Assembly (NCBI GenBank): GCA_045589955.1 | Contig: JAZNQD010000009.1 | Coordinates: 48,294-112,293, forward strand | Length of the DNA stretch: 64,000 nucleotides | Source: Bacilli bacterium | GTDB lineage: Bacteria; Bacillota_I; Bacilli_A; ML615J-28; CAG-313 | Reading direction: 5' to 3' | Shown here: positions 4,805-37,321 of the stretch, piece after piece | Layout: every line of letters starts with the position of its first letter | Position numbering within the stretch: position 1 is the first letter of the stretch | Made by a program: the position numbers and the translations under genes | The notes under the pieces: model-generated | Seen by the model: only the letters and a program-made list of their open reading frames with translations | The model's database searches: none | What the model was told of the DNA's origin: nothing

Positions 4805-5022
4805 GATTTTTTCCTTTCAGTTGGTTGATACAAAATTAAATGCGTATATATTCTAAAATAAAAAATATATAATATAATAACCTAATACACACTAGATTAT
4901 TGTATTATATATCTCATACCTCAGATATGCCAAACCGCTCTCCTTGGTCAATATAAAGACATTCTACTCAATCTATTATATATATCTCTATATCTTTTTT
5001 AACTCTATTAAATAAGTCTTAT

Positions 5023-5400
5023 ATAAATTGCAATAAATTTTAATATATCTTATTTAATTATTATATATTTATTATATCAATCACTTATCAACATATAAAT
5101 ATATAACTTTCAACATGCTTTTTTATATCTACTTATTTTGAAGTTTTAAGGTTAATAAATAAATTTGATATAAATTGCTAAAAAATTTTAATATCTTTTA
5201 TTTATTTTATATATTTATTTTAACCTCAAACTCTCTACATGCGAATATATTTTATCCACCATGCTTTTTTATTTATTCCAATCATTGAGCTTAATATAAA
5301 TTGCTAAAAATTTTAATATCTCTCAATCATTATTATAATTTTATTTTAACCGGTTTTCATCTACATGCGAATATATTTAAATCAACATGTAATCCAGCCC
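5023..5400. repeat. three ~125-bp tandem direct repeats (core TATAAATTGCTAAAAATTTTAATATCT ... CTACATGCGAATATATTT)
   Basis: Units start near 5023, 5169, 5294; exact 18-mer CTACATGCGAATATATTT at 5235 and 5359. Confidence 0.8.
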
Positions 5401-5510
5401 TTCCTTACCATATAATCCCTAACATGTACATATATTTTGCCTAACATGCCGGCGGGGGCCCGGGGGTGGGGGCCTTTACATGTAGGGGTAAAAAGTCAAC
5501 ATGCCGGCCC

Positions 5511-5615
5511 AGTAGGTATCTAAGCGGGAATGGTAGGTATCTAAGGCGTCTCGGCGTATCTCGGTGTGTTATTGTTAGGCAGTAGTATCGGTAGGTATCT
5601 AAGGCATCGGGATCG
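5511..5615. repeat. 14-mer iteron GGTAGGTATCTAAG x3 within G-rich island
   Basis: Copies at about 5513, 5534, 5600; surrounded by G-runs (GGCGGGGGCCCGGGGGTGGGGG) unusual for this AT-rich genome. Confidence 0.75.
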
Positions 5616-6637
5616 GTTATAGGAATTAGGGCATAGGCATTATCTCGGGCAGTAGGTAGGGAGGCAGCGGTGGCGGTAATCATATGGTCGTGTATGGAGG
5701 CCCGTGGGATAGTAGAAAAGTCGGTGTAGTTAGTTATGAGGGAAAAGTAGAAAGGTGTGTTGTATGGCGATTATATGGGGCAATGCTATTATATGAGGCG
5801 GTGGCGAGTAGAAGGAGGAGTTTTTTATAGATAGAGTATGTCAGACCAGAATATTATAGAAGTATACTTTATCTATATGTTAGTAATACATTTATGTCGG
5901 GAGAAGTGTATTGATTTGTATTACTATAGGAAAGACTCGCCACCATGAGGAGTTGAGTATTATTATTCTTTATTGAAGGGGAAGAATTCTGTTGTAGATT
6001 CTTTATTATTAGACCACCATGATTCTATACGATTATTTGCCCAGTGTATTCTTATATTATATTTATCGTTAGAGTTAGTGGTATTTTGGGTATTGAACAT
6101 TTTATCCATTACTTTTGATGCGGTGGAATTGAATGCGGATATGTTTATAGAGGTATTATTTTTTACTGTATCGTTTATTTCTTTTATTGTAGTTGGTTTA
6201 GTATACATTTCTTCTTTATCTATGGATTGAGAGTATAGTATTCTTGACATGTTGTATATATTCCTTTTTATTAGATATATTGAGTGTGTATATATGTTTT
6301 TTTGAATTGGTTTATTATATAGCGTGTAATAAATTATAAGTAAAGCAGTAATATTGTGTTAGTTATAAAAAAAGAAAAAAGACCAGTATGTGTATATATG
6401 TGGGGATATATATTACTGATCTTTTCTGTGTGTTAGTGTATATATTATATTGTGATGATTGATATTGTAGAGAGAATATTTTGGGGAATCATATAACTAG
6501 TAGGGAACTATATATGTATTCTTTCTACTTTATCTGATTTATATATACACACTAATAAGGAGGAGTTAGTATATGGTAGTATATATTGTTTTATTTTATT
6601 TGTAAAGTATTTTTTTATGTTGTGCGTAAGTTTTATT

Positions 6638-10455: not shown

Positions 10456-11142
10456 TTATACTTCTGTATTTAAATTTTGTACTTTTTCTAATTCTTTAGC
10501 CGAATTAACTATCTTTTGTTGTGGATTATTACCTTCTATACCTTCATCATCTACCAAAAAGATTTTGTTTGTATTAAAATCTTTTACAAGTACAGTTTCT
10601 TGTTTGAATTCTTTACAAATTTCAATAGCAAATAACAATAGCATTTCACTAGGTACACCACCCAATTCAATAGATGTTGATTTATCATTATAAATTCTAT
10701 CACCAGATTGATATTTACCTCTAAAGTTATTCCCTACTGTTAAAGCTCCCAAGTACATATTTGGTTGTTCACCGAATTCTTTATTCCAAGTCTGTACCAA
10801 ATTGTTTACTTTTTTATCTTTAAAGACGTGATTCATTGTAGAATGATAAAGTTTCTTTAAAAATCCATACAATTTGTTTTTTTCAATATTATCAATCACT
10901 GTATTTACAGATAATGCAAATACGATCATACCACCACGATATTTTTCGAAACCATATTGCTCATCTGCGATTTTTTCATACAAAAAGGATTCTGTAAGCT
11001 TTTCTTGTCTAACAAAAGCCTTTTCATTTTCAGAGATTGCTTTTAGCATACCGGCATTGTAGTAGCAAACACCATTTGGGCGTCTGTCTTTTCCATCTGG
11101 TCTAAAATATTTAATTTCTTCTATTCGCATTTTGTACTCCAA
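10456..11142 (-). CDS. hypothetical protein (island gene 1)
   Basis: 228 aa ORF, no recognisable motif. Confidence 0.55.
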   Translation of the reverse strand: MEYKMRIEEIKYFRPDGKDRRPNGVCYYNAGMLKAISENEKAFVRQEKLTESFLYEKIADEQYGFEKYRGGMIVFALSVNTVIDNIEKNKLYGFLKKLYHSTMNHVFKDKKVNNLVQTWNKEFGEQPNMYLGALTVGNNFRGKYQSGDRIYNDKSTSIELGGVPSEMLLLFAIEICKEFKQETVLVKDFNTNKIFLVDDEGIEGNNPQQKIVNSAKELEKVQNLNTEV

Positions 11143-11696
11143 TCGTATTTACCTCTTTTCATTAACTCTCTTAAAAAATATCCATACATATGACGTGCAA
11201 AATTAGGTTTTTTGGTACCTGATAACTCATATTCTGTGTTTTCTGAGATTAATGAAAACTTATTGCCATGTATCTTGCTAAATCCATTCTTAATATCGTG
11301 TATAGAAAATTTAGATAATACTGGACTTGTAGGTTTGCCATATTTATTATACCATCTTGGTTCGTAATCAGCTGTTTTTAATAAGATACTCTCTTGTTTA
11401 TATTTACCACATAACCAAAGCATATCTTCAGCAAAAGTTTTTTTATTTCCGTTATTTATTACAAAAAAGGAAGCTTCTGTTACATCAACCTCATTTTCTT
11501 TTCCTTGGTTTTCTGTAAATCCACCTAAAATTGTAATATAACTATATCCTAAAGACCTAATATCAGTAACTAGTTCTTCTGTATACTTTTCGTTTTCTTT
11601 ATTAGAATTTTCATTACGACAAGCAGAAATAAAGCATATCTCATTGTCGTTGATATGCTGCAATACTCTACTTAATCTAGCTTCTAGCATTTCCAT
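11121..11696 (-). CDS. hypothetical protein (island gene 2)
   Basis: 191 aa ORF; promoter upstream. Confidence 0.55.
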   Translation of the reverse strand: MEMLEARLSRVLQHINDNEICFISACRNENSNKENEKYTEELVTDIRSLGYSYITILGGFTENQGKENEVDVTEASFFVINNGNKKTFAEDMLWLCGKYKQESILLKTADYEPRWYNKYGKPTSPVLSKFSIHDIKNGFSKIHGNKFSLISENTEYELSGTKKPNFARHMYGYFLRELMKRGKYDWSTKCE

Positions 11697-14079: not shown

Positions 14080-15114
14080 TTAATATGTACTTAAATTATC
14101 AAAATATCCTTTAACATAAACAACCGGCGTTCCTTTATCACCACTACCAGATGTCAAATCCATTAAAGAACCTAATAAATCAGTTAATCTTCTTGGAGTA
14201 GTACCTTGTGAAACCATATTACCTACTAAATTTTTATCTTTTTCTTTGATACTTTGCTTAATAGTATTAGTTAAATCATCACCGCTTAAATCTTTATAAT
14301 CATTATCAGCTAAATATTTAAGTTTTAATTCGTTAGGTGTTCCTTTTAATCCATCTGTATAAGCAGGACTTACAACAGGATCAGCCAATTCCCAAATACC
14401 ACCAACAGGATCTTTAAAACAACCATCTCCATATACCATTACTTCAATTGTTTTTCCTGTTTTTTCATAAATTGTTTTTTGGATACAATCAATTAATTTT
14501 TTTGCAGAAGAATACGACGGAAATAATTTTAGCTTTTCTTCAGTCGCTTTATTACTTCCATATAGACCATATTCACATTTATCTGAACAAATATCTTTTA
14601 AGGTTATATCAAACGTATTTTTATGAATCTGACAATCTATAATCCCATTAACATTACATACCGATTCATTTTGGTATACAATATAACACTCTTTACCTTC
14701 TGCTTCAACAATTGATTTATAATATTCATCATAATTCAATCCGGTAAAAGGATGATTTTGTAATACATTACCAACTTCATCGACATTAGGCATTCTTATA
14801 TAAACAGTTCCAGTAACTGCTCGTGCAATACCTTTTAAAATCATTGCAAAACGATTACGCGAATAAATTGGATTAAATACTAAAATATCTTTTGGATTAT
14901 TGAATACTTTTTTAACAGATTCGGCAACTTCATCAACCGTAACATAATTACCTTCTGTTCTTGCAACAATAGATTCTGTAATACCTAAAACATCTTTATC
15001 ATCTATTTCTAACCCACTATTTAAAAGTGTATCTGAAACAATTTGAGCTAAATCATCACCTTCTTTGAAAATTGGACAAACTAATCCATATACAGATGTA
15101 CCTATTGTGCGCAT
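14080..15114 (-). CDS. CofE-like (F420-0:gamma-glutamyl ligase family) amide ligase homolog
   Basis: N-terminal [13 protein letters not shown]...[20 protein letters not shown] and C-terminal [12 protein letters not shown] resemble conserved CofE/FbiB blocks (GDDLAELI, SKAEGR, EGTPVV.VRG). Confidence 0.5.
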
Positions 15115-16147: not shown

Positions 16148-17701
16148 TTAATATACTATTTGCATATAACGCTCTTGGTTAATAACTTTCAAAGTTGCTT
16201 CTAAAGCATCATAATCTTCGCCTAATGCAATTTTCATAACAGAAGGTGAACAACCAGATAACAAAATATTATTCTTATCGTTAACCGTAATAGGAGTTTG
16301 ATTACTACGACTATCTACGTTCCACCATATTAACTTAGGTAAAGTATATCCAGCTTTTTCATATTTAGCCTTTATACCTTCATAATTAGTAAAACCAAAT
16401 GAGTATTCATCAAATTCCATATCTGAAATAATAATAAGTTGTTTTGGCATATCAGCATCTGGTACTTTTTCGGCAACAGCTCTTTTCAAAATTAAATCGA
16501 AAACACTTTGTAAATTAGTATTACTACAATCACCGGTAAAAACAGAACGAATTTTATCCAATAATGTATTACCTTTAACTATTTTCCACTGTGCGTTACA
16601 TGAAAAAGGAATTACATAGTTACGCCAAACCAAAGACTTATTTCTTTCTGCTATATAAATTGCTAAAGACAAAGATACAGCCATCGGTAAACCATTCATT
16701 GAACCAGATGTATCGCAAACAACCAAACCGTTTATTTCTGGTACATAATCCGGTAAAGCTTTCCATTGCGCCTCGACAGTAGGATTTATATTGATATGAG
16801 AGCCATAACCAATAAAATCATAAGCATCACTATAAACCCGAATTAAATCATACGGATATAATGTTTTAGCATTTATTTTAGCTTTACCTTCTTTTACCGC
16901 TTCTATATACGCATTATACTTATCAGAATCGTTTTTAAAGAAAGCTTTTCTGTATTTAAATGCAGCATAAGAAGGAAGATTTTCATAGTTAATTTTATCG
17001 TATTCTTTATTAACTAATTTTGTTTCAACTATATCCAAATCTTTACGTAATAAAACCAAAGCTCTTCTATAAGCTCCAATTGCACCAAACTTCCCAGATT
17101 TCAACAGTATATTTAACCACTTACGTTTTTCTGCATTTTTTACGCTTGTTCGTGGTAACCATTTAGCTAATAAAGAAATATCATATAATTCACCTTTAAA
17201 ATGATGTTGTAAATCTTTTTCTAATTGCATACCTATATAATCTATTACTTCATCTCGACAAGCAGTAAGTAATAGTGGCATATAATCATCATATCTACCA
17301 TATTCTGCAATTAAACCTAAATTTTTGCATATCCAATCTTTTTCGACATTACCTAAATATTCTAAGCAAATACGAAATACTTTACGTTCACCTTGTCCGC
17401 CTCTTACATCACGAATATAAAAAAGAGTACGTAAAGCCAAAGTTTTATCATAGTTAAATGCATTTACAAAAAGATTTAATATACGAGATTTATCAGTTTC
17501 TTTACGTAAAGCTGCACCATGAAAAAACCAATCAACAAGAGCGTTTTGTGTAGAAATATTAGTCAACGCCCCATTTTCAGTATAGGTTTTATTTGACATA
17601 GCATTAATAAACGCATTAGTAGAAGATTCACTTACTAATGGTATAGCTTTAAACTCAGAAATTTTTGCAGTATATCCTAATAAATCTGTATATGTTTTCA
17701 T
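16148..17701 (-). CDS. vWA-domain protein with MIDAS motif and N-terminal helical DUF2828/TROVE-like module
   Basis: LVVCDTSGSMNG (DxSxS MIDAS) about residue 330; N-terminal YIRDVRGGQGERKVF block reminiscent of DUF2828 proteins; promoter upstream. Confidence 0.5.
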   Translation of the reverse strand: MKTYTDLLGYTAKISEFKAIPLVSESSTNAFINAMSNKTYTENGALTNISTQNALVDWFFHGAALRKETDKSRILNLFVNAFNYDKTLALRTLFYIRDVRGGQGERKVFRICLEYLGNVEKDWICKNLGLIAEYGRYDDYMPLLLTACRDEVIDYIGMQLEKDLQHHFKGELYDISLLAKWLPRTSVKNAEKRKWLNILLKSGKFGAIGAYRRALVLLRKDLDIVETKLVNKEYDKINYENLPSYAAFKYRKAFFKNDSDKYNAYIEAVKEGKAKINAKTLYPYDLIRVYSDAYDFIGYGSHININPTVEAQWKALPDYVPEINGLVVCDTSGSMNGLPMAVSLSLAIYIAERNKSLVWRNYVIPFSCNAQWKIVKGNTLLDKIRSVFTGDCSNTNLQSVFDLILKRAVAEKVPDADMPKQLIIISDMEFDEYSFGFTNYEGIKAKYEKAGYTLPKLIWWNVDSRSNQTPITVNDKNNILLSGCSPSVMKIALGEDYDALEATLKVINQERYMQIVY

Positions 17702-19486: not shown

Positions 19487-19687
19487 TTATTTAAATACTA
19501 CTGGCATAACACTTAAATAATCCGTACTTTCTTTTTTCCAATCAAACTTTTTTATTTCTTTTTTCTTATTTTTAATTACTCTAGTACGTAATAAACCTTT
19601 TAACTGAGCCTCTATCAACATAAAATTTCGTCTTTTAGGCGCTTTAATTTTAAGCTTAAACTTATTTTTCATAATCTTGACCTTCAA
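19487..19687 (-). CDS. small highly basic hypothetical protein
   Basis: 66 aa, Lys/Arg rich; directly downstream of ACP gene. Confidence 0.4.
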   Translation of the reverse strand: MKVKIMKNKFKLKIKAPKRRNFMLIEAQLKGLLRTRVIKNKKKEIKKFDWKKESTDYLSVMPVVFK

Positions 19688-19938
19688 ATATGTTTTTCAA
19701 GATATTCAACTAAGTCCTTTACAGTTTCTATTTTTTCAGCATCATTATCTGCAATTTCTAAACCAAATTCTTCTTCAACGTACATAATTAATTCAACATG
19801 ATCTAAACTATCTAAATATAAATCATTATCAAAAGTATGTGTCATAAGAATTTCATTTCTATGCTTACCTGACACGTCTTCAATTAATTTTGCAACTTTA
19901 TTGAATATCTCTTTGTTTTCCATGACCATTTCTTTCAT
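19684..19938 (-). CDS. acpP: acyl carrier protein
   Basis: MKEMVMENKEIFNKVAKLIEDV...DNDLYLDSLDHVELIMYVEEEFGLEIADNDAEKIETVKDLVEYL carries the DSL phosphopantetheine-attachment motif and helix-II acidic patch. The ORF-track N-terminal extension 19939..20106 is spurious because it overlaps two tRNAs. Confidence 0.75.
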   Translation of the reverse strand: MKEMVMENKEIFNKVAKLIEDVSGKHRNEILMTHTFDNDLYLDSLDHVELIMYVEEEFGLEIADNDAEKIETVKDLVEYLEKHI

Positions 19939-19943
19939 ATAAT

Positions 19944-20019
19944 TGGAGCGAGTGAACGGGCTCGAACCGTCGACATCAACCTTGGCAAGGTTGCGCTCTA
20001 CCAACTGAGCTACACTCGC
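19944..20019 (-). tRNA. tRNA-Gly (GCC)
   Basis: Acceptor GCGAGTG/CACTCGC, D GCTC/GAGC, anticodon loop TTGCCAA, T-loop TTCGAGC, CCA. Confidence 0.75.
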
Positions 20020-20028
20020 AAAAAATGC

Positions 20029-20150
20029 GGGTAAGGGATAGATTCGAACTACCGACCAAGAGGTTACCAACCATGCAGATACAATTGCTGTGCCTATTTT
20101 TACCAAAATAGTTTATTTGCTTCTTGCTCTAACCGCTGAGCTACCTTACC
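20029..20150 (-). tRNA. anomalous 122-nt tRNA (candidate Thr, GGT) with about 50 nt of extra internal sequence; possible intron-containing gene or pseudogene
   Basis: Perfect acceptor GGTAAGG/CCTTACC, D-arm GCTC-AGCGGTTAGA-GC and T-arm GGTAG-TTCGAAT-CTATC, internal CTATT-TTGGTAA-AATAG anticodon-like hairpin, 3' end GCA instead of CCA. Confidence 0.4.
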
Positions 20151-20158
20151 CATAAGAA

Positions 20159-20398
20159 CTAACTTATTTCAATAGTTTTAAATAAAAATGTAATGGTAAT
20201 CTGAAATGTACGAATTATATCTTCATCTAAAACTTCTACAAATAACACTTTATCACCGTCTAATGCAACACTTTTCGAATACCATTCTGGATGTTTTTCT
20301 ACCCATTCTTGCGCTAATGACATGGGATGAAGATTTTGTTCACTCTCATAGTCTTCCCAGTCAATATCATTTTGTAATCGTATTTTACATTTTTGCAT
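20159..20398 (-). CDS. hypothetical protein
   Basis: 79 aa ORF. Confidence 0.45.
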   Translation of the reverse strand: MQKCKIRLQNDIDWEDYESEQNLHPMSLAQEWVEKHPEWYSKSVALDGDKVLFVEVLDEDIIRTFQITITFLFKTIEIS

Positions 20399-20420: not shown

Positions 20421-20507
20421 TGGTGGGCTAGGCCGGAATCGAACCGGCACGGGATTGCTCCCAACAGATTTTAAGTCTGCAGCGTCTACCAGTTCCGCCA
20501 CAAGCCC
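20421..20507 (-). tRNA. tRNA-Leu (TAA), type II
   Basis: Anticodon loop CTTAAAA, long variable arm, T-arm GCCGG-TTCGATT-CCGGC, CCA. Confidence 0.7.
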
Positions 20508-20526: not shown

Positions 20527-20567
20527 TAAAAAAGAAGTGTCCTTTATTTTCAAGAACACTTACAATA
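20527..20567 (-). terminator. rho-independent terminator after small basic protein gene
   Basis: Hairpin AAGTGTTC...GGACACTT followed by CTTTTTTAAG on minus. Confidence 0.4.
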
Positions 20568-20603
20568 TGCATTAAAATTTTTAAATGTAAAACAAAAAAG
20601 TGA

Positions 20604-29908: not shown

Positions 29909-30382
29909 ATGCCAGTTTGGAAACAATTAGCACAATCTACACCAAAAGTATCACCAGGTGCAGTAAATAATTCATCTAAAACAAATATTAGTAATTTTAA
30001 TTTGCAATATGATTCAAAAAAGAAAATTATTACATATTATGGATCAGTTGCATCTAGCTCTATGCCGGGTGGATACAATGTAATAATTAGTTTTTTAAAT
30101 GTAGGTCCAGAAGACGGTCTTACAGATGATGAGATTTTACAAGGCTTTAAACCAAAACCATCTCTTGCTAACAATGAAGTCCAAGTAAGATGTTCTTGTC
30201 CGGCATATCGTTTTAGATTTGACCAAGCTAATAGAAGTCATGGTGCAGGTACAGGTAAAAAGTTTCCAAATTACCATAGAAAAACAGATCGCGCTCCAAA
30301 TAATCCAAATAATTTACCCGGCTTTTGTAAACATCTTTTGGAGTTCGTTGAATATTTACAGCGTCAAGGATTTATACATTGA
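29909..30382 (+). CDS. SWIM zinc-finger protein
   Basis: CSCPAYRF...PGFCKHL gives a CxCxnCxH SWIM signature. Confidence 0.5.
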   Translation: MPVWKQLAQSTPKVSPGAVNNSSKTNISNFNLQYDSKKKIITYYGSVASSSMPGGYNVIISFLNVGPEDGLTDDEILQGFKPKPSLANNEVQVRCSCPAYRFRFDQANRSHGAGTGKKFPNYHRKTDRAPNNPNNLPGFCKHLLEFVEYLQRQGFIH

Positions 30383-30972
30383 TTAAAGTTTCTATAATAA
30401 TCCCCGTTTATAATACTGAAAAATACATAAGAAAATGTCTAGAATCGGCAATTAATCAAACTTTAACCGATATTGAGATAATTTGTATTAATGATGGTTC
30501 AACAGATAATAGCCTAAGTATATTATATGAATATGCAGCTAAAGATTCTCGTATACGTGTATTCACTAAAGCAAATGAAGGTGTAGCAAAAGCACGTAAT
30601 TTAGGTTTACGTCATGCTAGAGGTGAATATGTTGGTTTTATAGACAGTGATGATTTTGTAGATGAAAAATACTTTGAAGAATTATATAGCTATGGTCCAC
30701 AATACGATGTGATACGTGGAATAAGAGTTATAGATGAAACTAATAAACAAGGTAAGAATAAATATGGTTGCATTATTCCATCTATAATAAAAAGAAACGT
30801 ATTAGTTAAGCATAATTTATTTTTCCCTAATAGAAAATCTGGAGAAGATAGTACATTTAAACGCTGGCTTTATAACGCAACTCGAAACATTTTTGAATGC
30901 CCAGATAAAGGTATATATTATCATTATATGCGTAGAGCCGGGTCCCTTTCTAACTATGATATAAAAGAGTAA
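30379..30972 (+). CDS. family 2 glycosyltransferase
   Basis: VSIIIPVYNTEKYIRKCLESAINQTLTDIEIICINDGSTDNS ... FIDSDD (DxD). Confidence 0.75.
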   Translation: MIKVSIIIPVYNTEKYIRKCLESAINQTLTDIEIICINDGSTDNSLSILYEYAAKDSRIRVFTKANEGVAKARNLGLRHARGEYVGFIDSDDFVDEKYFEELYSYGPQYDVIRGIRVIDETNKQGKNKYGCIIPSIIKRNVLVKHNLFFPNRKSGEDSTFKRWLYNATRNIFECPDKGIYYHYMRRAGSLSNYDIKE

Positions 30973-30976
30973 TATT

Positions 30977-31669
30977 ATGACACAGCCTTTAGTCTCAATT
31001 ATTTTAACAGTATATGATACCAAATTACAATATTTACAAGAATGTATAGAGAGTCTTTTGCAACAAACTCACAAAAATATTGAAATTATTGTAATTGATG
31101 ATGCTTCTCCAAATACTACCTATGATCACATTGTAGAATTTTCAAATAAAATCAAGTTGTATAGAAACCCTGAAAATTTAAAAATGAATAAATCAGTAAA
31201 CAAAGGATTCGATTTATCAACAGGTAAATATGTAGTTAGATTAGGCAGTGATGATATTTTTCATAACGAAATGCTAGAAAAAGAAGTAGCTTATCTTGAA
31301 AATCATCCAGAAGTCGGCGCAGTTTGTTGTGAATTAAAACGTTTCGGTTGTGACCAGCATCAACATATTAGACGACCGAAAACTTGGAATTATAATAATA
31401 TTGTAAACAATCGAATTTTTGCCGGTACTGGTTATGCTGGTGGTATGATGTTTAGACACGAACTTTTGGAATTTTGTTCAATAGATGAAGATTTTAAGAT
31501 GTGTGAAGATTTTGATTTTCATCTACAATTATTGAAACATATGCCCATTGCAAGTATTCATGAGATTTTATATTATTACCGCTCGCACGAAACAAATTTA
31601 TGTAAAAGTGTAAGCCGTCAAGAACGATGGGCTCTTTTAGATAAGATTATTGCTAAACACAAAAACTAA
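30977..31669 (+). CDS. family 2 glycosyltransferase
   Basis: VSIILTVYDTKLQYLQECIESLLQQTHKNIEIIVIDDASPNTT ... LGSDD. Confidence 0.7.
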   Translation: MTQPLVSIILTVYDTKLQYLQECIESLLQQTHKNIEIIVIDDASPNTTYDHIVEFSNKIKLYRNPENLKMNKSVNKGFDLSTGKYVVRLGSDDIFHNEMLEKEVAYLENHPEVGAVCCELKRFGCDQHQHIRRPKTWNYNNIVNNRIFAGTGYAGGMMFRHELLEFCSIDEDFKMCEDFDFHLQLLKHMPIASIHEILYYYRSHETNLCKSVSRQERWALLDKIIAKHKN

Positions 31670-31724: not shown

Positions 31725-32696
31725 ATGCCTGATATAACATTAAATATCCCTTCTAATAGTAAATTTCACAGTAGCCTTAACGAAATAGATTTGGCTATGG
31801 GTGCAGTTTTACTCAATCAAATGAGAATAGCTGATCCACGTAATAAGCTGGGTTTGCAAGACGTTTTAGCAACAGAAGAAAAAAATGATTGGTTATGGGA
31901 CTATTCTAGGGTTTTTCAAGTAGATGAATTAACCACAGAAGAAATATTTAATACTTATTTATTACGCAAAAATATTAATAAAGAAAAAGGCGTAGATATT
32001 ACTTATCCAATCTTAGCATACTTACAAAACGATTTAGAAACAGTATTTTGGGGTACAGGTAATAGATTTAGACAATGGTATTTTGATTTACCAACACCGG
32101 CTGATTCTTGGGAGGTTGGTGATTCTGTATTTATTACGGCACCAGCTAAATATAGAGGTTTACAAGGTGAAATAGAAGAAGTAAAGACAGAAGATTCCCA
32201 GTTATATTGTAAATTGTCTATTAACGGTCAAATTATCACAAATACACTTCCTAATTTTAAAAAAGAAGAAATGTGGTTTAAAATAGAAGACCTTCGTCAA
32301 GTTGGCGATAAAACACCTTCAACTTATAAAGCTAAATCTGTAAAAGGTACGTATACGGCTGTAATATTGTGTGATAATAGAGACGAATTACAATATTTGC
32401 GTGATAAATTTATTTTACGCTGTGCTGATGGTCAAATTTGGCATAAATACGCATCTCCTTCAATTAACGGCGCTGAAAATCAATTATTTACAGTATTTGA
32501 TATTCCTAACATTGAAAGATATCCTGCTTCACAAGATAAATTAAAAGGTGAAGGTTATATCTACGGCTCTGCATTTAAGATTAATTATTGGGGATGCTTA
32601 ACAGATACACCATTACCGCAATCATTAATTGAGACAATCCGTATGAATATTCATGTAGAAGGAGACGGTAGAACTAATCGAATAGTTATTAGTTAA
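31725..32696 (+). CDS. hypothetical protein (late operon)
   Basis: 323 aa; GTTCTAAT motif at 31686. Confidence 0.55.
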   Translation: MPDITLNIPSNSKFHSSLNEIDLAMGAVLLNQMRIADPRNKLGLQDVLATEEKNDWLWDYSRVFQVDELTTEEIFNTYLLRKNINKEKGVDITYPILAYLQNDLETVFWGTGNRFRQWYFDLPTPADSWEVGDSVFITAPAKYRGLQGEIEEVKTEDSQLYCKLSINGQIITNTLPNFKKEEMWFKIEDLRQVGDKTPSTYKAKSVKGTYTAVILCDNRDELQYLRDKFILRCADGQIWHKYASPSINGAENQLFTVFDIPNIERYPASQDKLKGEGYIYGSAFKINYWGCLTDTPLPQSLIETIRMNIHVEGDGRTNRIVIS

Positions 32697-32821
32697 TATA
32701 AACAATTACAATATTTTAATTAATATAGGTTCTAGTTTTATATATTTCTAGTTTAATTTTCATATTACAATAGTTCTAGTTTTTAGTTTATAATCAAAAT
32801 ATATTAAAGGAAAAGATACAA

Positions 32822-33889
32822 ATGGCAAAATTTTTGAAAAGACTTTCTGCTCGTGTAGCTCGTGAAGCTTTACGTGAAAGTGCAAAAGAAGCTAAAAACT
32901 GGATCGTTTCTAGAAAATTGATTTTAGAAACTGAAGAAGGTGATATTGAATTCGATAAAGGTGAAACAGTTGAAATCGGTGCTACACCTGAAGGTGATAT
33001 GGCATTGAATGGTTCTGCTGCTGTTGTTGTTATTTCAGATGCTGATTTAGCTGCTAAGATTGCAGACGTTGTTGTTTCTTCTGATGAATTATCTGACGTT
33101 AACTTCGTTGAAAAACCAGCTTTAGATGCTGTTATGGACGGTGAAGAAGTTGATGATGTAATCGACAGTCTTGCTGATGACGACAATGATGAAGTTGAAG
33201 TTGCAGAATTAGACATTGAACAAAAAGAAGCTGTTGAAACTAAGTTTGCTAAATTTAGTGAAAATCGCATGAATCCTGCTAAGTTCTTTGTTTGCGAATC
33301 AATTTTGGTTGACGAAACTGATAATGCTCCTCTTAACTTAAGACTTATCAAAACTGATTCAGTTAAAAAAGAAAGTTTCTCTGAATACAAAAAATTCGCT
33401 GGTCGTGTAGCTGAATTAAATGGTTCAATTCAACCAGGTAAAAGAGAAATTGCTTTGTCAGAAGCTGGCGAAATCATGGGTGCATATGATACAGAAGCTA
33501 ATGCTGGTGAAATTTATCCTGAAAACACATTTGAATCTGTAGATGCTATGGATAATTTCGATGCTGCTCCTGCTGCTTTGATGCAATATGAAGATTATGG
33601 TGATAATGCTGAAGTTCTCGAATCTGCATTAGGTGCTTTCGAAGAATCTGCAAAATCTGGTAAAGATTACGTTGCTTTAGTTGAAGCTGTTGAAAAAACA
33701 GGTTTGGCTGAAGAAGCAGTTGCTAAAATCGTAGCTACTTTTGATAATCGTTCTTTAACAGAATGCGTACGTGCTTTTGATACAAAGTATGGTAAATATG
33801 TAGCTGCATTTAAAGAATCTGTGGATTGCGACAACTTCATCGCTGAAACAGGCGAAGAAAAACGTTTCACAAAGCGTTTCTTCGCGTAA
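32822..33889 (+). CDS. highly acidic protein (possible scaffold / internal virion protein)
   Basis: 355 aa, D/E rich, strong AAAGGAAAAG RBS, own terminator; function inferred only from composition and position. Confidence 0.55.
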   Translation: MAKFLKRLSARVAREALRESAKEAKNWIVSRKLILETEEGDIEFDKGETVEIGATPEGDMALNGSAAVVVISDADLAAKIADVVVSSDELSDVNFVEKPALDAVMDGEEVDDVIDSLADDDNDEVEVAELDIEQKEAVETKFAKFSENRMNPAKFFVCESILVDETDNAPLNLRLIKTDSVKKESFSEYKKFAGRVAELNGSIQPGKREIALSEAGEIMGAYDTEANAGEIYPENTFESVDAMDNFDAAPAALMQYEDYGDNAEVLESALGAFEESAKSGKDYVALVEAVEKTGLAEEAVAKIVATFDNRSLTECVRAFDTKYGKYVAAFKESVDCDNFIAETGEEKRFTKRFFA

Positions 33890-33920
33890 TTACATCTTTA
33901 TAATGTGATTAAAAAATACA

Positions 33921-33952
33921 AAAAGGGTTCCTAATTTTGGGACCCTTTTTTA
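33921..33952 (+). terminator. rho-independent terminator
   Basis: AAAAGGGTTCC-loop-GGGACCCTTTTTTAT. Confidence 0.6.
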
Positions 33953-33981
33953 TGTTCTATAGAAATATATTAAACTAGCTT

Positions 33982-34272
33982 ATGGAAAGTAAAATGTATT
34001 TGATACGAGAAAATGTACAAGATGAAGAAATAACTGGTTATTGGATCGATGAAAAAATTAATGGTAAATTAATTGAATCCCATTTCGTAACAAAAGACTT
34101 AAAGACTTGCTCTTGCAGATATTTTGCAGAATCCAAAAACCCTTATAATCATTTTCATATCAATTTATGCTCGTATTGGATAAAATCTGGTAAACCACAA
34201 TGTGCAATGTATGCTAAATCAAAAAAAGGTAAAATCGTTGTGCTTTGTCCAGGTTTTACTAAAATTAAATAA
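33982..34272 (+). CDS. small Cys/His-rich (SWIM-like) protein
   Basis: CSCRYFAESKNPYNHFHINLC plus C-terminal Cys residues. Confidence 0.45.
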   Translation: MESKMYLIRENVQDEEITGYWIDEKINGKLIESHFVTKDLKTCSCRYFAESKNPYNHFHINLCSYWIKSGKPQCAMYAKSKKGKIVVLCPGFTKIK

Positions 34273-34380
34273 GCTTAACAATTTATATTTACTAAAGTTC
34301 TAATTATAAAATGATTGTAATATTATAATAAAATACGTATTCTTTTATAAGTACAAAAAGTTTTAATGAGGATAAAAAGC

Positions 34381-35112
34381 ATGAATCTTAGAGATCGTTT
34401 AACACAAGCTGCAAAAAACAGTTTAAGTGAAGGATTAGAAAGTTCAAAAGATATCATCGGTGATAACATTGTTCCTTCTTTTGAAGAAATGGGCATGGCA
34501 AGCGTTGAACCAGGTGAATTCGCACAAGGTGAAATTACTGATCAAGAAAATTTAGTAAACAAAGGCAATATGTCTAACGATAATACTTTCAATAGCGAAA
34601 AAAATGACGCAGGTTCTGAAGTTGCTAATGCTATTGATGATATGGTAGATGATATTGTTGATATTTCAGATAAAGATGAAGATTCAGAAGTAGCATCTAT
34701 TGAAATTACACAAACGACAGAAGATGATGCTGAAAAATGCGAAGAAAAGAAATGTAATCCATTTGGTGAATCTACTTTCGCAAAATTAGTTGAAAATGCT
34801 TTGGGCGGAAAAACTTGTGAGCAATATTTAAAAGAATCTGGCAACTACGCAGGTCCATTAGATTTCGTACCAGATACACGTATCAACGTTTCAGATGTAT
34901 TAACTACTTTAAAACGTGAATTAGGTGAAGGTTCAGAAGGTATTCACGTAGATCAAGTATACGATGAACGTAGAAACAATGCTTATCAAGTTTCACAATT
35001 CGATAAAGAAAAGTTACCTAAAAAAATTCAAGTAGAAAACGTATTGCTTGAATTAGATGGTGATACATATAAAGTAAATAAAGTTAGTGATTCTTTCCCA
35101 TTAGCTCGTTAA
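34381..35112 (+). CDS. acidic hypothetical protein
   Basis: Start moved to ATG 34381 (GAGGA RBS); D/E rich. Confidence 0.5.
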   Translation: MNLRDRLTQAAKNSLSEGLESSKDIIGDNIVPSFEEMGMASVEPGEFAQGEITDQENLVNKGNMSNDNTFNSEKNDAGSEVANAIDDMVDDIVDISDKDEDSEVASIEITQTTEDDAEKCEEKKCNPFGESTFAKLVENALGGKTCEQYLKESGNYAGPLDFVPDTRINVSDVLTTLKRELGEGSEGIHVDQVYDERRNNAYQVSQFDKEKLPKKIQVENVLLELDGDTYKVNKVSDSFPLAR

Positions 35113-35126
35113 TATCAGAGGCTAAT

Positions 35127-36023
35127 ATGAGATTTATACCAAAAGTAAAAGAACCTATAGTAGAATCTGTAACGGTAACGGTAACCGAAGCAGAAGTTAA
35201 TCCATTAGAAACAAATGGTGTTGATTTATCTTACGATGAACAATATAAACAGGCTATTTTAAAAGCAATAGGTAGTGAAACCTCTGCTCATGTAGAGTAT
35301 GATCAAATATTAGCCCTTGAACCACATGTCAGTACAAAATCATTAGTAGATTTATTTCACGATACATTAATAGATATTCGTGACGAAGAAATGAAGCATA
35401 TCGCTCAGCTTACAACTAAAATAAGCGAAGTACCTGAAATGAAAGCTTCTTTTGAGGCTGGTGAAGAAGAAGCAGAAACTGGTGAAGACAAAGAAACCTC
35501 TAATCAAGAAGAAACAGAAGAAAACGAAAAAGAGGAAGTTAAAGAATCCGTGGAATTATTGACTGAAGCTGTACAAACAAATCGTTTATATGATACTTAT
35601 ACAATCTCACAAATAATTGCAGATAAGCTTGGGTTAAATGATAAACAATATGAAATTATAGAAGATATGTTTAGATATGCCGATGATGAATTAGAAGCCG
35701 GTGAAGTCGATTCATATCTTGTTAAAATTTCAGAGTACTTTAGAATTTCAGATCATAAATTAGAAGAAATTGAAAACGCAATTATTGCATCTAATGACCC
35801 AATAGCAGATAGAAAAAGTGAATTTGCTGATGACATTCAATCTGATATTTATGATATTGAAAATACTATAGAAAAAGTATCTTCTATTGCAGCCAAAGAA
35901 AAATTATACTCTGTAATTGAATATCTTAAAAACTTAGAGTATAATGGTGAAAAAGAAGTAGGCTGGTCAGTAAGACATTCTATGTTTGGTAGTAGAAATC
36001 CAAAGAAAAGGATTGTTGCATAA
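35127..36023 (+). CDS. acidic hypothetical protein
   Basis: 298 aa, E-rich central region. Confidence 0.55.
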   Translation: MRFIPKVKEPIVESVTVTVTEAEVNPLETNGVDLSYDEQYKQAILKAIGSETSAHVEYDQILALEPHVSTKSLVDLFHDTLIDIRDEEMKHIAQLTTKISEVPEMKASFEAGEEEAETGEDKETSNQEETEENEKEEVKESVELLTEAVQTNRLYDTYTISQIIADKLGLNDKQYEIIEDMFRYADDELEAGEVDSYLVKISEYFRISDHKLEEIENAIIASNDPIADRKSEFADDIQSDIYDIENTIEKVSSIAAKEKLYSVIEYLKNLEYNGEKEVGWSVRHSMFGSRNPKKRIVA

Positions 36024-36412: not shown

Positions 36413-37321
36413 ATGACAGATTTAAAAAGGAAGACAATTACCCAGCCATGGTTACATACCAAAGAATGGGCAGATAAACAACATATAAGTTACCCAAACA
36501 ATGTCCTTTCTGAAAAAGCACGTTCCTTTTTAACGTATACAATGCCAGAAAAACCATATCCTAATGATTTAAACTTAGATTTGGTATATATTTTAAAAGC
36601 AAGTGAATCAAATCCAGATATAAGAATTTCTTTACGTTCGGTTGCTAAGTTTTGTAATTTTAGAAGAATTTGGATTGTAGGATATAAACCTTCATGGATT
36701 AAAGGTGTAAGATATATCCCAACTATTCAAAACCAAGATAAGTGGAAAAATAGTATAATCAATTATATGGCAGCGTGTAATTGTGAAGAAGTATCTGAAA
36801 ACTTTATCTTAATGAATGACGATTTCTTTGCATTAAGACCAATTTATAACTGGCGAGAAAACTTAAATGTTTGTTTAGGTAAGTTATCAGATGAAGTAAG
36901 GAAAAACGCAAATAATCCTAAAAAATCACGCTGGAAATATGGATTTGATTATGCCGTAGATACCTTAAAAGAATTGAAATGTGAAAACGAATTCAATTAC
37001 GAAACACATTTACCAATTATCATTAATAAAGCTAATTTTAAACAAATGATGAAACTTCCTATTATTAAAGACTTTATGGTAACAAGAAAAGTCTTACATA
37101 AGAGAAGTATATATAAGAATCTTTATCCAGATTCTGTTCTTACTAATCCTCGTAGAATTGATGATGTTAAAATTACTCTAAACCAAGACTTATCGGATGC
37201 ATGGCTAAGAGAAGATTGGTTAAGTGTTTTTGACGATACAGTGGGAAATACTAGACAATATCCAAAGCTAAATCAGTTTTTAAGTAGTTTATTTTCAGAA
37301 AAATGTAAATTTGAAGTATAA
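36413..37321 (+). CDS. Stealth-family protein (hexose-1-phosphoryltransferase / capsule phosphotransferase homolog)
   Basis: LDLVYILKASESNPD (CR1-like), DIRISLRSVAKF...RIWIVGYKPSW...FILMNDDFFAL (CR2-like: LRYSLRS, IVT, YLNDD), ETHLPIIINK (CR3-like). Confidence 0.55.
   Translation: MTDLKRKTITQPWLHTKEWADKQHISYPNNVLSEKARSFLTYTMPEKPYPNDLNLDLVYILKASESNPDIRISLRSVAKFCNFRRIWIVGYKPSWIKGVRYIPTIQNQDKWKNSIINYMAACNCEEVSENFILMNDDFFALRPIYNWRENLNVCLGKLSDEVRKNANNPKKSRWKYGFDYAVDTLKELKCENEFNYETHLPIIINKANFKQMMKLPIIKDFMVTRKVLHKRSIYKNLYPDSVLTNPRRIDDVKITLNQDLSDAWLREDWLSVFDDTVGNTRQYPKLNQFLSSLFSEKCKFEV

What the first reader, a model, noticed from the sequence alone, without database searches (positions are those of the whole stretch)
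19684..19938. Phage-encoded acyl carrier protein wedged inside a tRNA array
This is a clear ACP: the DSL Ser-attachment motif sits in LDSLDHVELIMYVEEEFGLEI. The gene is 5 nt from tRNA-Gly, and the ORF caller had fused its N-terminus across two tRNAs. No partner fatty-acid or polyketide enzymes appear in the window apart from the CofE-like ligase at 14080. A standalone phage ACP suggests hijacking of host FAS (lipid A or phospholipid supply during infection), or a carrier role in a small-molecule or modification pathway.
Basis: partly seen in the sequence, partly recalled or inferred. Interest (0 to 1): 0.55.

Follow-up and report, generated by a model that had tools for sequence, protein, structure and literature searches.

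The report
Stand-alone phage acyl carrier protein
An uncultivated tailed phage carries a genuine acyl carrier protein gene, the small shuttle protein of fatty-acid synthesis, inside its tRNA gene cluster; such lone phage copies are already on record but nobody knows what they do.

Summary
On the minus strand, 19684-19938 encodes an 84-aa protein (more likely 79 aa, from ATG 19923). It passes NCBI's housekeeping acyl-carrier-protein model (TIGR00517, 81.3 bits, cut-off 70.45), Pfam PP-binding and PHROG 5934. AlphaFold2 (pLDDT 95) predicts a four-helix ACP with the DSL serine at the start of helix II. Three metagenomic relatives show purifying selection (dN/dS 0-0.19).

The gene lies 5 nt (or 20 nt) downstream of tRNA-Gly, in a 21-gene tRNA array of a low-GC myovirus with no close cultured relative. 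The second tRNA crossed by the fused ORF is real but carries a 49-nt insertion.

Seventy ORFs of the 64 kb, plus 10 kb beyond the left edge, hold no PPTase, FAS/PKS enzyme or acyltransferase. The CofE-like gene is unrelated. Stand-alone ACPs are annotated in many phages and occur in at least 421 IMG/VR contigs, with no recurrent partner and no tested function.

Most likely the host AcpS modifies the protein and it serves the host type II fatty-acid synthase; this is inferred, not shown. One twist: the usual Gly three residues before the serine is Tyr here, and non-Gly in 8 of 9 cultured-phage ACPs. New member of a known, uncharacterised class; modest interest.

The parts
19684..19938 (-). Acyl carrier protein CDS. 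It is 84 aa from ATG 19938. The more likely start is ATG 19923, giving 79 aa (MENKEIF...). Stop is TGA at 19684-19686. The phosphopantetheine-attachment serine is Ser39 of the 79-aa form (Ser44 of the 84-aa form), in LYLDSLD.
   Evidence: Start choice: family models and homologues begin at residue 6-8 of the 84-aa form. A purine-rich GAAAGAAA precedes ATG 19923, and nothing SD-like precedes ATG 19938. Both ATGs are conserved in relatives, while the ATG between them is not.
19944..20019 (-). tRNA-Gly(GCC) with encoded CCA, immediately upstream of the ACP gene
   Evidence: ARAGORN; Rfam tRNA 68.2 bits
20029..20150 (-). tRNA-shaped gene with a ~49-nt insertion in the anticodon arm. ARAGORN -i reads it as Thr(GGU), with the insert between positions 31 and 32. 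It is the second 'tRNA' crossed by the fused ORF.
   Evidence: Rfam tRNA 44.0 bits, gathering 29. Conserved in L001-L003, with compensatory T-stem changes in L003.
20159..20398 (-). Conserved 79-aa acidic ORF of unknown function between tRNA-Leu and the insertion-bearing tRNA (same predicted transcription unit)
   Evidence: dN/dS about 0.02-0.09 against relatives.
20421..20507 (-). tRNA-Leu(UAA), intron-less here, first gene after a terminator-like hairpin and promoter-like sites
20535..20591 (-). Terminator-like hairpin (20561-20535) and sigma-70-like hexamers (20591-20564) upstream of tRNA-Leu. This is the probable start of the unit tRNA-Leu / ORF79 / tRNA* / tRNA-Gly / ACP / ORF61 (consensus matches only).
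   Evidence: No promoter-like site lies between tRNA-Gly and the ACP start.
19487..19672 (-). 61-aa very basic ORF (pI 10.6, charge +14.5) starting 11 nt after the ACP stop. Conserved in relatives, no family match.
   Evidence: A basic downstream neighbour is not a general feature of phage ACP genes.

Best explanation
The gene encodes a functional, housekeeping-type (AcpP-like) acyl carrier protein that the phage makes during infection.

It is probably transcribed with the surrounding tRNA genes. Its mRNA 5' end would then be created by processing of tRNA-Gly.

The phage window encodes no phosphopantetheinyl transferase and no fatty-acid enzymes. The protein would therefore be converted to the holo form on Ser39 by the host AcpS. 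It would then be loaded and used by the host type II fatty-acid synthase and acyltransferases. In effect it tops up or replaces the host ACP pool, so that lipid (membrane) synthesis or another ACP-dependent host reaction continues after host gene expression is shut off.

Shown: family membership, fold, conserved serine and helix-II surface, purifying selection, and absence of partners in 74 kb.

Inferred: modification by host AcpS, use by host FAS, co-transcription with tRNAs, and the benefit to the phage.
For: - NCBIfam housekeeping ACP models are passed, while every specialised carrier model (AcpM, DltC, AsbD, AmcB and others) falls below its cut-off.
- About 50% identity to many bacterial AcpPs, and no closer to any one group. 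One 50%-identical hit sits in a bacterial acpP-fabF-rnc locus.
- In helix II (DSLDHVELIMYVEEEF), D38, L40, D41, E44, E50, E52 and F53 are invariant and S39 and M47 nearly so across 56 ACPs. From my own knowledge of the AcpS-ACP complex (Parris et al. 2000; PDB 1F80), these are the positions AcpS and FAS enzymes contact.
- AF2 model: pLDDT 95.1, helices 3-18, 39-53, 59-64 and 68-78, Ser39 at the N-terminus of helix II. Foldseek TM 0.95, rmsd 0.8 A, to Thermus ACP, and strong matches to AcpP in complexes with FabH, FabZ, FabD, LpxD and AcpS.
- dN/dS of 0-0.19.
- No PPTase, KAS or acyltransferase in 70 scanned ORFs, by BLAST, or in the 10 kb left of the window.
- Stand-alone is the rule for viral ACPs: 77 of 80 IMG/VR loci have no Fab neighbour, and 149 neighbouring proteins from 39 loci show no recurrent partner family.
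- AcpS-like genes are almost absent from phage records. One convincing case was found in 50,697 records.
Against: - No experiment exists for any phage ACP.
- ACP is already very abundant and stable in bacteria (own knowledge), so the benefit of a top-up is not obvious.
- The Gly three residues before the serine is Tyr here. It is G in 77% of 145 motif instances among the best general ACP hits. That Gly lies in the loop before helix II, and a bulky residue might affect PPTase or partner recognition.
- The gene lacks the strong AAGGAG-type ribosome-binding site that most genes of this phage have, so expression may be low.
- Only 64 kb (+10 kb) of a probably larger genome could be seen.
Confidence: 0.5

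Rival explanations
1. It is the carrier of a phage-specific pathway, for example acylation or aminoacylation of a small molecule, a glycan or a virion/DNA modification. The partner enzymes would lie outside the 64-kb window or be too divergent to recognise.
For: - The window covers only part of the genome.
- It contains many unassigned ORFs and a sugar-modification-like block: two GT2 glycosyltransferases at 30379-31669 and a Stealth-CR2-like protein at 36413-37321.
- In other viral contigs ACP genes sit among DNA replication and modification genes. The gut-phage group has DnaB / DNA methylase / ACP / conserved 215-aa unknown with overlapping stop and start codons.
- Fatty-acid desaturases flank 2 of 39 viral ACP loci.
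Against: - No adenylating enzyme, KAS, acyltransferase or PPTase in 70 ORFs, nor in the 10 kb beyond the left edge.
- No neighbour is shared between this window and 80 other viral ACP loci except DnaB.
- The sequence scores as housekeeping AcpP, not as any specialised carrier.
Confidence: 0.2
2. It acts as a mimic or decoy of host ACP rather than as a carrier. It would bind, sequester or mis-regulate host ACP-binding proteins (AcpS, PlsB-type acyltransferases, SpoT/Rel, MukB, IscS) as part of host takeover, possibly remaining in the apo form.
For: - The Gly at -3 is replaced by Tyr here. It is non-Gly (W, R, Q, L, D) in 8 of 9 cultured-phage ACPs and in a large gut-phage 'WMDSLD' group, against 77% Gly among general ACPs.
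- Viral ACPs are almost always stand-alone.
- From own knowledge: apo-ACP over-production is toxic in E. coli (Keating, Carey & Cronan 1995), and ACP has many non-FAS binding partners, some visible in the fold hits (MukBEF, Nfs1-ISD11).
Against: - The serine and the whole helix-II surface are conserved across phage ACPs.
- The hydrophobic positions of the helices are conserved and the model is a compact ACP bundle. A pure binder would not need these.
- 31 of 80 IMG/VR ACPs keep the canonical GADSLD.
Confidence: 0.15
3. It is a passenger (moron) picked up from a host, with no role in infection.
For: It lies in a tRNA/accessory region that is a typical landing site for accessory genes, and it has a weak ribosome-binding site.
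Against: - Purifying selection across four variants of the phage.
- At most about 61% identity to any of 1.84 billion cluster representatives outside its own lineage, so it is not a recent capture.
- Conserved position and neighbours in the relatives.
Confidence: 0.08

Closest known systems
Bacterial housekeeping acyl carrier protein AcpP (TIGR00517; e.g. Thermus thermophilus ACP PDB 1x3o, E. coli AcpP)
   Same: Length of about 79 aa, pI 4.4, and 44-50% identity. DSLD serine at the start of helix II. Acidic helix II. Predicted four-helix bundle (TM 0.95 to 1x3o). Scores above NCBI's equivalog cut-off.
   Different: Encoded by a phage, next to tRNA genes rather than in a fabD-fabG-acpP-fabF cluster. 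Tyr-Leu instead of Gly-Ala before the DSL motif.
Phage-encoded ACPs of PHROG 5934. Examples: Vibrio phage helene 12B3 AGG58013.1, Vibrio phage R16F ORF117, Xanthomonas phage XbC2 UYE98586.1, Achromobacter phage Motura QDH83467.1, Erythrobacter phage R6L ORF32, and gut 'Caudoviricetes sp.' MAG ACPs.
   Same: Stand-alone ACP in the early/accessory region of a large phage, with no FAS or PPTase partner nearby. Non-Gly residue at -3 in most. In Motura the ACP gene likewise starts 24 nt after a tRNA (tRNA-Arg). Function unknown (PMC5463345, PMC10152775).
   Different: Only 34-48% identical to them. The host phage is a separate lineage: tail sheath at most 34% and DnaB at most 29% identical to any cultured phage. 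Outside the -3 position its sequence is nearer to canonical AcpP than to the 'WMDSLD...GRC' phage group. It lacks the N- or C-terminal extensions seen in helene, XbC2, P018-4 and MED4-213.
Specialised carrier proteins (DltC, AcpM, AsbD, AmcB, peptidyl/aryl carrier domains)
   Same: Same PP-binding superfamily fold and serine.
   Different: All score below their curated cut-offs. Examples: DltC 23.1 against 68, AcpM 55 against 146, AsbD 26.7 against 100. None of their partner genes is present.
tRNA clusters of large lytic phages with interspersed small ORFs and stable RNAs (T4 tRNA region; from own knowledge)
   Same: Protein-coding genes embedded between tRNA genes on one strand, apparently in one transcription unit.
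   Different: T4's cluster carries no ACP. Only 3 of 80 viral ACP loci have tRNAs within 6 kb, so the ACP-tRNA linkage is occasional, not a rule.

Membership tests
Acyl carrier protein, housekeeping type (Pfam PF00550 / NCBIfam TIGR00517) | Whole-protein profile score above the curated cut-off | tested here: met
   PF00550 37.2 bits (cut-off 20.8), TIGR00517 81.3 (70.45), NF002148 83.6 (71), NF002150 80 (66)
Acyl carrier protein, housekeeping type (Pfam PF00550 / NCBIfam TIGR00517) | Conserved serine of the D-S-L motif, aligned with the 4'-phosphopantetheine attachment serine | tested here: met
   DSLD aligns with DSLD of Thermus and Aquifex ACP. Ser is nearly invariant, and D38, L40 and D41 invariant, in a 56-sequence alignment.
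Acyl carrier protein, housekeeping type (Pfam PF00550 / NCBIfam TIGR00517) | Four-helix bundle with the serine at the N-terminus of helix II | tested here: met
   Prediction only. AF2 pLDDT 95.1, helices 3-18, 39-53, 59-64 and 68-78. Foldseek TM 0.95, rmsd 0.8 A, to 1x3o.
Acyl carrier protein, housekeeping type (Pfam PF00550 / NCBIfam TIGR00517) | Small residue pattern before the serine: G/N/Q at -3, as in LGADSLD (PROSITE PS00012, recalled from memory) | tested here: not met
   The sequence is LYLDSLD, with Tyr at -3. G occupies that site in 112 of 145 motif instances among the best general hits, and Y occurs only in this phage lineage. This is a motif convention, not a condition of the Pfam or NCBIfam models.
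Acyl carrier protein, housekeeping type (Pfam PF00550 / NCBIfam TIGR00517) | Covalent 4'-phosphopantetheine on the serine, and acyl loading | not testable with these tools
   Needs mass spectrometry or gel-shift of the expressed protein.
Acyl carrier protein, housekeeping type (Pfam PF00550 / NCBIfam TIGR00517) | Genomic association with fab genes (fabD-fabG-acpP-fabF) | tested here: not met
   No Fab homologue in the window (tblastn E<=10 gives only noise; Pfam scans). This is expected for a phage copy.
Phage ACP family PHROG 5934 | Match to the PHROG profile over its length, in a viral genome | tested here: met
   E = 4.8e-18, residues 3-83 on profile positions 7-87 of 93. Phage hallmark genes in the window.
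Specialised carrier proteins (DltC, AcpM, AsbD, AmcB, OlsHI ACP) | Score above the family's curated cut-off | tested here: not met
   All are far below cut-off.

The most novel reading that the evidence does not exclude
Phage-encoded ACPs, this one included, may be a functionally distinct class. They are almost always stand-alone. Most have lost the near-universal glycine three residues before the attachment serine (Y here; W, R, Q, L or D elsewhere). They could therefore act as ACP mimics that rewire or block host ACP-dependent hubs (AcpS, acyltransferases, stringent-response or chromosome-maintenance partners) rather than as extra carriers for lipid synthesis.
Probability: 0.15. Interest if true: 0.6.

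Novelty: new member of a known kind. Interest (0 to 1): 0.3.

Why it matters
Stand-alone ACP genes recur in many unrelated phages (at least 421 IMG/VR contigs, several cultured phages) and are labelled 'auxiliary metabolic genes', yet none has been tested. This copy is a clean, canonical-looking example in a new phage lineage.

Together with the comparison made here (no recurrent partner enzyme, almost no phage PPTases, frequent loss of the -3 glycine), it frames a simple experiment: is a phage ACP modified and used by the host FAS, or does it interfere with it? Either answer would say how large phages handle host lipid metabolism.

For annotation, the case shows that gene callers fuse this ORF across two tRNA genes (140-aa entries in public databases), and that an insertion-bearing tRNA is missed by default tRNA finders.

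Tried and rejected
- Finding the same phage or its whole genome. Megablast against 50,697 phage records gave only tRNA-sized hits. An IMG/VR scan with the protein found nothing. Exact-protein look-ups returned only fragments of 1.3-21 kb, and the right-end proteins are not on record. Partner genes elsewhere in the genome could therefore not be checked beyond +10 kb on the left.
- Host inference. A genome-contig scan with the IMPDH/GMP-reductase-like gene found nothing. Cluster look-up of the ten most similar ACPs gave no organism names. Tail sheath and DnaB are at most 34% identical to phages of very different hosts. The only hints are about 31% GC and strong AAGGAG ribosome sites.
- A conserved partner next to phage ACPs. 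Clustering of 1,538 neighbour ORFs from 80 viral loci, tblastn of these against the window, and a Pfam scan of 149 neighbours found none.
- The very basic 61-aa ORF just downstream as a general ACP partner. Rejected, because downstream neighbours in other phages are not consistently basic or related.
- CofE-like gene as a partner. Rejected on family grounds.
- PHROG scan of ten unassigned ORFs: one hit, to an unknown-function family.
- The unassigned ORFs 31725-36023 were read by eye. Most are acidic and low-complexity, so they are unlikely to be enzymes.

Full report
**1. What is in the sequence**

The feature is on the minus strand. Reading 19938->19684 gives an 84-codon ORF ending in TGA. 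Its product contains LYLDSLDHVELIMYVEEEFGLEI.

tRNA-Gly(GCC) occupies 19944-20019 on the same strand. That leaves 5 nt before ATG 19938. The purely mechanical ORF list extends the frame to a TTG at 20106 (140 aa), across tRNA-Gly and into the next gene. Public metagenome gene calls carry the same 140-aa fusion (P0001 and P0002).

**2. Is it an ACP?**

Yes, by every test available.
- Pfam PP-binding scores 37.2 bits against a cut-off of 20.8.
- NCBIfam's housekeeping models are passed: TIGR00517 at 81.3 against 70.45, NF002148 at 83.6 against 71, NF002150 at 80 against 66.
- All specialised carrier families (AcpM, DltC, AsbD, AmcB and others) fall well below their cut-offs.
- PHROG 5934 'acyl carrier protein' matches at 4.8e-18.
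- The best solved relative is Thermus thermophilus ACP 1x3o (E = 2.5e-16), with DSLD aligned to DSLD.
- An AlphaFold2 model built on 56 sequences has mean pLDDT 95.1. It shows four helices at 3-18, 39-53, 59-64 and 68-78, numbering from ATG 19923. The serine (Ser39) sits at the N-terminus of helix II.
- Foldseek gives TM 0.95 and rmsd 0.8 A to 1x3o. It also returns dozens of AcpP chains, including AcpP bound to FabH, FabZ, FabD, LpxD and AcpS.

Three metagenomic relatives (92-100% amino-acid identity) differ mainly at synonymous sites, with dN/dS of 0-0.19. The ORF is therefore a maintained coding gene. The protein is strongly acidic (pI 4.4, charge -13), as ACPs are.

**3. Start codon**

Family models and homologues begin at residues 6-8 of the 84-aa form. 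Most genes in the window have an AAGGAG/GGAG-type Shine-Dalgarno site. ATG 19938 is preceded only by the tRNA 3' end (...GCTCCAATTAT), whereas ATG 19923 is preceded by GAAAGAAA at -14 to -7. Both ATGs are conserved in relatives, and the ATG between them is not (ATG->ACT in L001 and L002).

I favour ATG 19923 (79 aa). The alternative cannot be excluded: an almost leaderless mRNA starting 5 nt before ATG 19938 after tRNA 3' processing.

**4. Surroundings**

The window belongs to a tailed phage.
- Structural and lysis genes: tail sheath (37492-39453), tail-tip domains, tail assembly chaperone, head-fibre domains, LydA-type holin.
- Regulatory and mobile-element genes: KilAC antirepressor and a T5orf172/GIY-YIG gene.
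- Replication and RNA genes: RNase H, DnaB and an SF2 helicase.
- Metabolic or accessory genes: two SAM-lyase-like genes, a CofE/F420-ligase-like gene, a DUF2828/DUF7788 gene, an IMPDH/GMP-reductase-like gene, a DnaJ-domain gene, two GT2 glycosyltransferases and a Stealth-like protein.

GC content is about 31%. No cultured phage is close. DNA search finds only tRNA-sized matches. Tail sheath is at most 34% identical, and DnaB at most 29% identical, to any record.

ARAGORN finds 20 tRNA genes between 9849 and 22231, all on the minus strand. A 21st tRNA-shaped gene at 20029-20150 carries a ~49-nt insertion in the anticodon arm.

Consensus scans place a terminator-like hairpin and promoter-like hexamers just upstream of tRNA-Leu (20535-20591). 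They find no promoter-like site between tRNA-Gly and the ACP start. The likely unit is tRNA-Leu / 79-aa ORF / insertion-bearing tRNA / tRNA-Gly / ACP / 61-aa basic ORF. This is an inference from weak pattern matches.

**5. Partners**

I scanned 70 ORFs of the window against Pfam and ten unassigned ones against PHROGs. I also ran tblastn with FabD, FabG, FabF, two AcpS sequences and Sfp.

Nothing resembling a phosphopantetheinyl transferase, ketosynthase, adenylating enzyme or acyltransferase appeared. A contig that extends 10 kb beyond the left edge adds only a DUF2201 protein and unknowns.

The CofE-like gene (PF01996) belongs to a gamma-glutamyl/amide ligase family. It has no known connection to ACP chemistry, so it should not count as a partner. 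The rest of the genome could not be retrieved.

**6. How this compares with other viral ACPs**

tblastn finds ACP-like sequences in 62 phage records. Some of these are clearly host DNA in unannotated bins. 'Acinetobacter phage MD-2021a', for example, is rpmF-fabD-fabG-acpP. Bona fide phages with annotated ACPs include:
- Vibrio phages helene, eugene and R16F
- Xanthomonas phage XbC2
- Brevundimonas phage Bajun
- Achromobacter phage Motura

Erwinia phage Kaldavass, Vibrio phage P018-4 and Prochlorococcus phage MED4-213 carry unannotated ones.

IMG/VR holds at least 421 viral contigs with an ACP. Among the 80 best loci:
- Only three, all short and host-like, have Fab neighbours.
- None has a PPTase by BLAST.
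- A Pfam scan of 149 same-strand neighbours from 39 non-redundant loci shows no recurrent partner. It finds ordinary phage replication and nucleotide-metabolism genes, plus fatty-acid desaturases in two loci.
- No neighbour family is shared with this window except DnaB.

AcpS-like genes are nearly absent from phage records. One convincing case was found, Microcystis phage MaAM05.

Papers that mention phage ACPs call them auxiliary metabolic genes and state that their function is unclear (PMC5463345; PMC10152775). Full-text searches found no functional study.

Position next to tRNAs is occasional, seen in 3 of 80 IMG/VR loci. Motura has the same arrangement as here, with the ACP start 24 nt after tRNA-Arg.

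**7. A sequence peculiarity**

Canonical ACPs read L-G-A-D-S-L-D. Among the 150 best hits in a 1.84-billion-protein representative library, G occupies the -3 position in 112 of 145 motif instances. Tyr occurs only in this phage's own lineage.

This protein reads L-Y-L-D-S-L-D, and its relatives read L-Y-M-D-S-L-D. Eight of nine cultured-phage ACPs examined also lack the glycine: W, R, Q, Q, L, D and D in the others, with Bajun alone keeping G. So does a large gut-phage group with W-M-D-S-L-D.

By contrast, 31 of the 80 IMG/VR loci keep G-A, so the trait is common rather than universal. The sample is also small and partly related. Its meaning is unknown. It could reflect relaxed constraint from fewer partners, or altered recognition by the PPTase or by partner proteins.

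**8. Most likely mechanism**

The facts to be explained are these. The profile is housekeeping-type. The recognition helix is conserved: D38, L40, D41, E44, E50, E52 and F53 are invariant, and S39 and M47 nearly so, in 56 ACPs. These match the AcpS and FAS contact positions known from the B. subtilis AcpS-ACP complex (own knowledge). The helical hydrophobic positions are conserved, and no phage PPTase or FAS genes are present.

The simplest account is that the host AcpS converts the protein to its holo form, and that host type II FAS enzymes and acyltransferases then load and use it. It would thus supplement or replace host AcpP during infection. I put this at about 0.5. Only family membership, fold, conservation and lack of partners are shown; everything downstream is inference.

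Rivals are:
- A carrier for a phage-specific pathway with unseen partners (0.2).
- An ACP mimic or decoy acting on host ACP-binding hubs, which the -3 substitution and the known toxicity of apo-ACP make conceivable (0.15).
- A neutral passenger (0.08), which purifying selection and the lack of any close bacterial donor argue against.

**9. Verdict**

The identification is correct, and the functional speculation is reasonable but untested. The class (PHROG 5934, stand-alone phage ACPs) is already known, so this is a new member in a new phage lineage. Interest is modest at 0.3.

The more unusual items nearby are the insertion-bearing tRNA, and the presence or absence of a group I intron in tRNA-Leu(UAA) among close relatives. 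Both are recorded under things noticed in passing.

Noticed in passing
window 20029-20150 (-): A tRNA-shaped gene has about 49 extra nucleotides in the anticodon arm. ARAGORN -i reads it as Thr(GGU), with the insert between positions 31 and 32. Rfam's tRNA model scores it at 44.0 bits only when a short stretch is searched. The insert is too short for a group I intron and sits at a non-canonical site. It contains a 7-bp hairpin (CUAUUUU/AAAAUAG) that keeps pairing through a U-A to U-G change in relatives. In L003 the T-stem shows two compensatory pairs, and the loop changes from TTGGTAA to TCGTTAA. An extra G-1:C73-like pair is possible. Whether it is spliced or is a stable tRNA-like RNA is unknown.
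   Followed up: partly
window 20421-20507 (-); L001, L002 and L003 upstream of the 79-aa ORF: tRNA-Leu(UAA) is intact in the window. In all three close relatives it is interrupted after U34 (GACTT|...|AAAATC) by an insert of 250 nt or more. In L002 this scores as a group I intron (Rfam RF00028, 57.1 bits, gathering 50), and L002 carries an HNH-like ORF upstream. This is the classic tRNA-Leu(UAA) intron site, here polymorphic within one phage lineage.
   Followed up: partly
window 4860-5700: A non-coding stretch of about 1.1 kb has extreme composition. GC falls to 13.5% at 5000-5199, then rises to about 50% with GC skew up to +0.57 at 5400-5800. It holds three copies of a 126-148-nt repeat unit (4995-5450) and three GGTAGGTATCTAAGG iteron-like repeats (5511-5608). 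No Rfam match. It is a candidate replication origin or an array of early promoters.
   Followed up: partly
window 14080-15114 (-) and 16148-17701 (-): A CofE/F420-0:gamma-glutamyl-ligase-like gene (PF01996, E = 5e-46) matches a 218-position profile over 326 residues, so it carries insertions of about 110 aa. It lies near a DUF2828+DUF7788 gene, between two tRNA blocks. The same pair is found together on a metagenome contig. Its role in a phage is unknown.
   Followed up: no
window 10456-11696 (-): Two adjacent, overlapping genes carry S-adenosylmethionine-lyase-family domains. The second is clear (46.4 bits); the first is below cut-off (17.8 bits). They may be an anti-restriction or SAM-depletion function present in duplicate.
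   Followed up: no
window 30379-31669 (+) and 36413-37321 (+): Two tandem GT2 glycosyltransferases and a Stealth-CR2-like protein (PHROG 7999) lie directly upstream of the tail sheath gene. Acidic low-complexity ORFs sit between them. This suggests glycosylation of virion or host-surface components.
   Followed up: no
L022-L093 (IMG/VR and metagenome gut-phage contigs): A large family of gut Caudoviricetes contigs encodes a divergent ACP (WMDSLD...GRC). Its gene overlaps a C5 DNA methylase gene upstream and a conserved 215-aa unknown protein downstream, next to an intein-containing DnaB. The 215-aa protein has a paralogue about 3 kb away. This fixed three-gene arrangement might be a distinct ACP-dependent system.
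   Followed up: partly
window 19487-19672 (-): A 61-aa ORF with net charge +14.5 starts 11 nt after the stop of the ACP gene (net charge -13). It is conserved in relatives, with dN/dS about 0.1-0.45. An electrostatic partnership is conceivable but has no support from other phages.
   Followed up: partly
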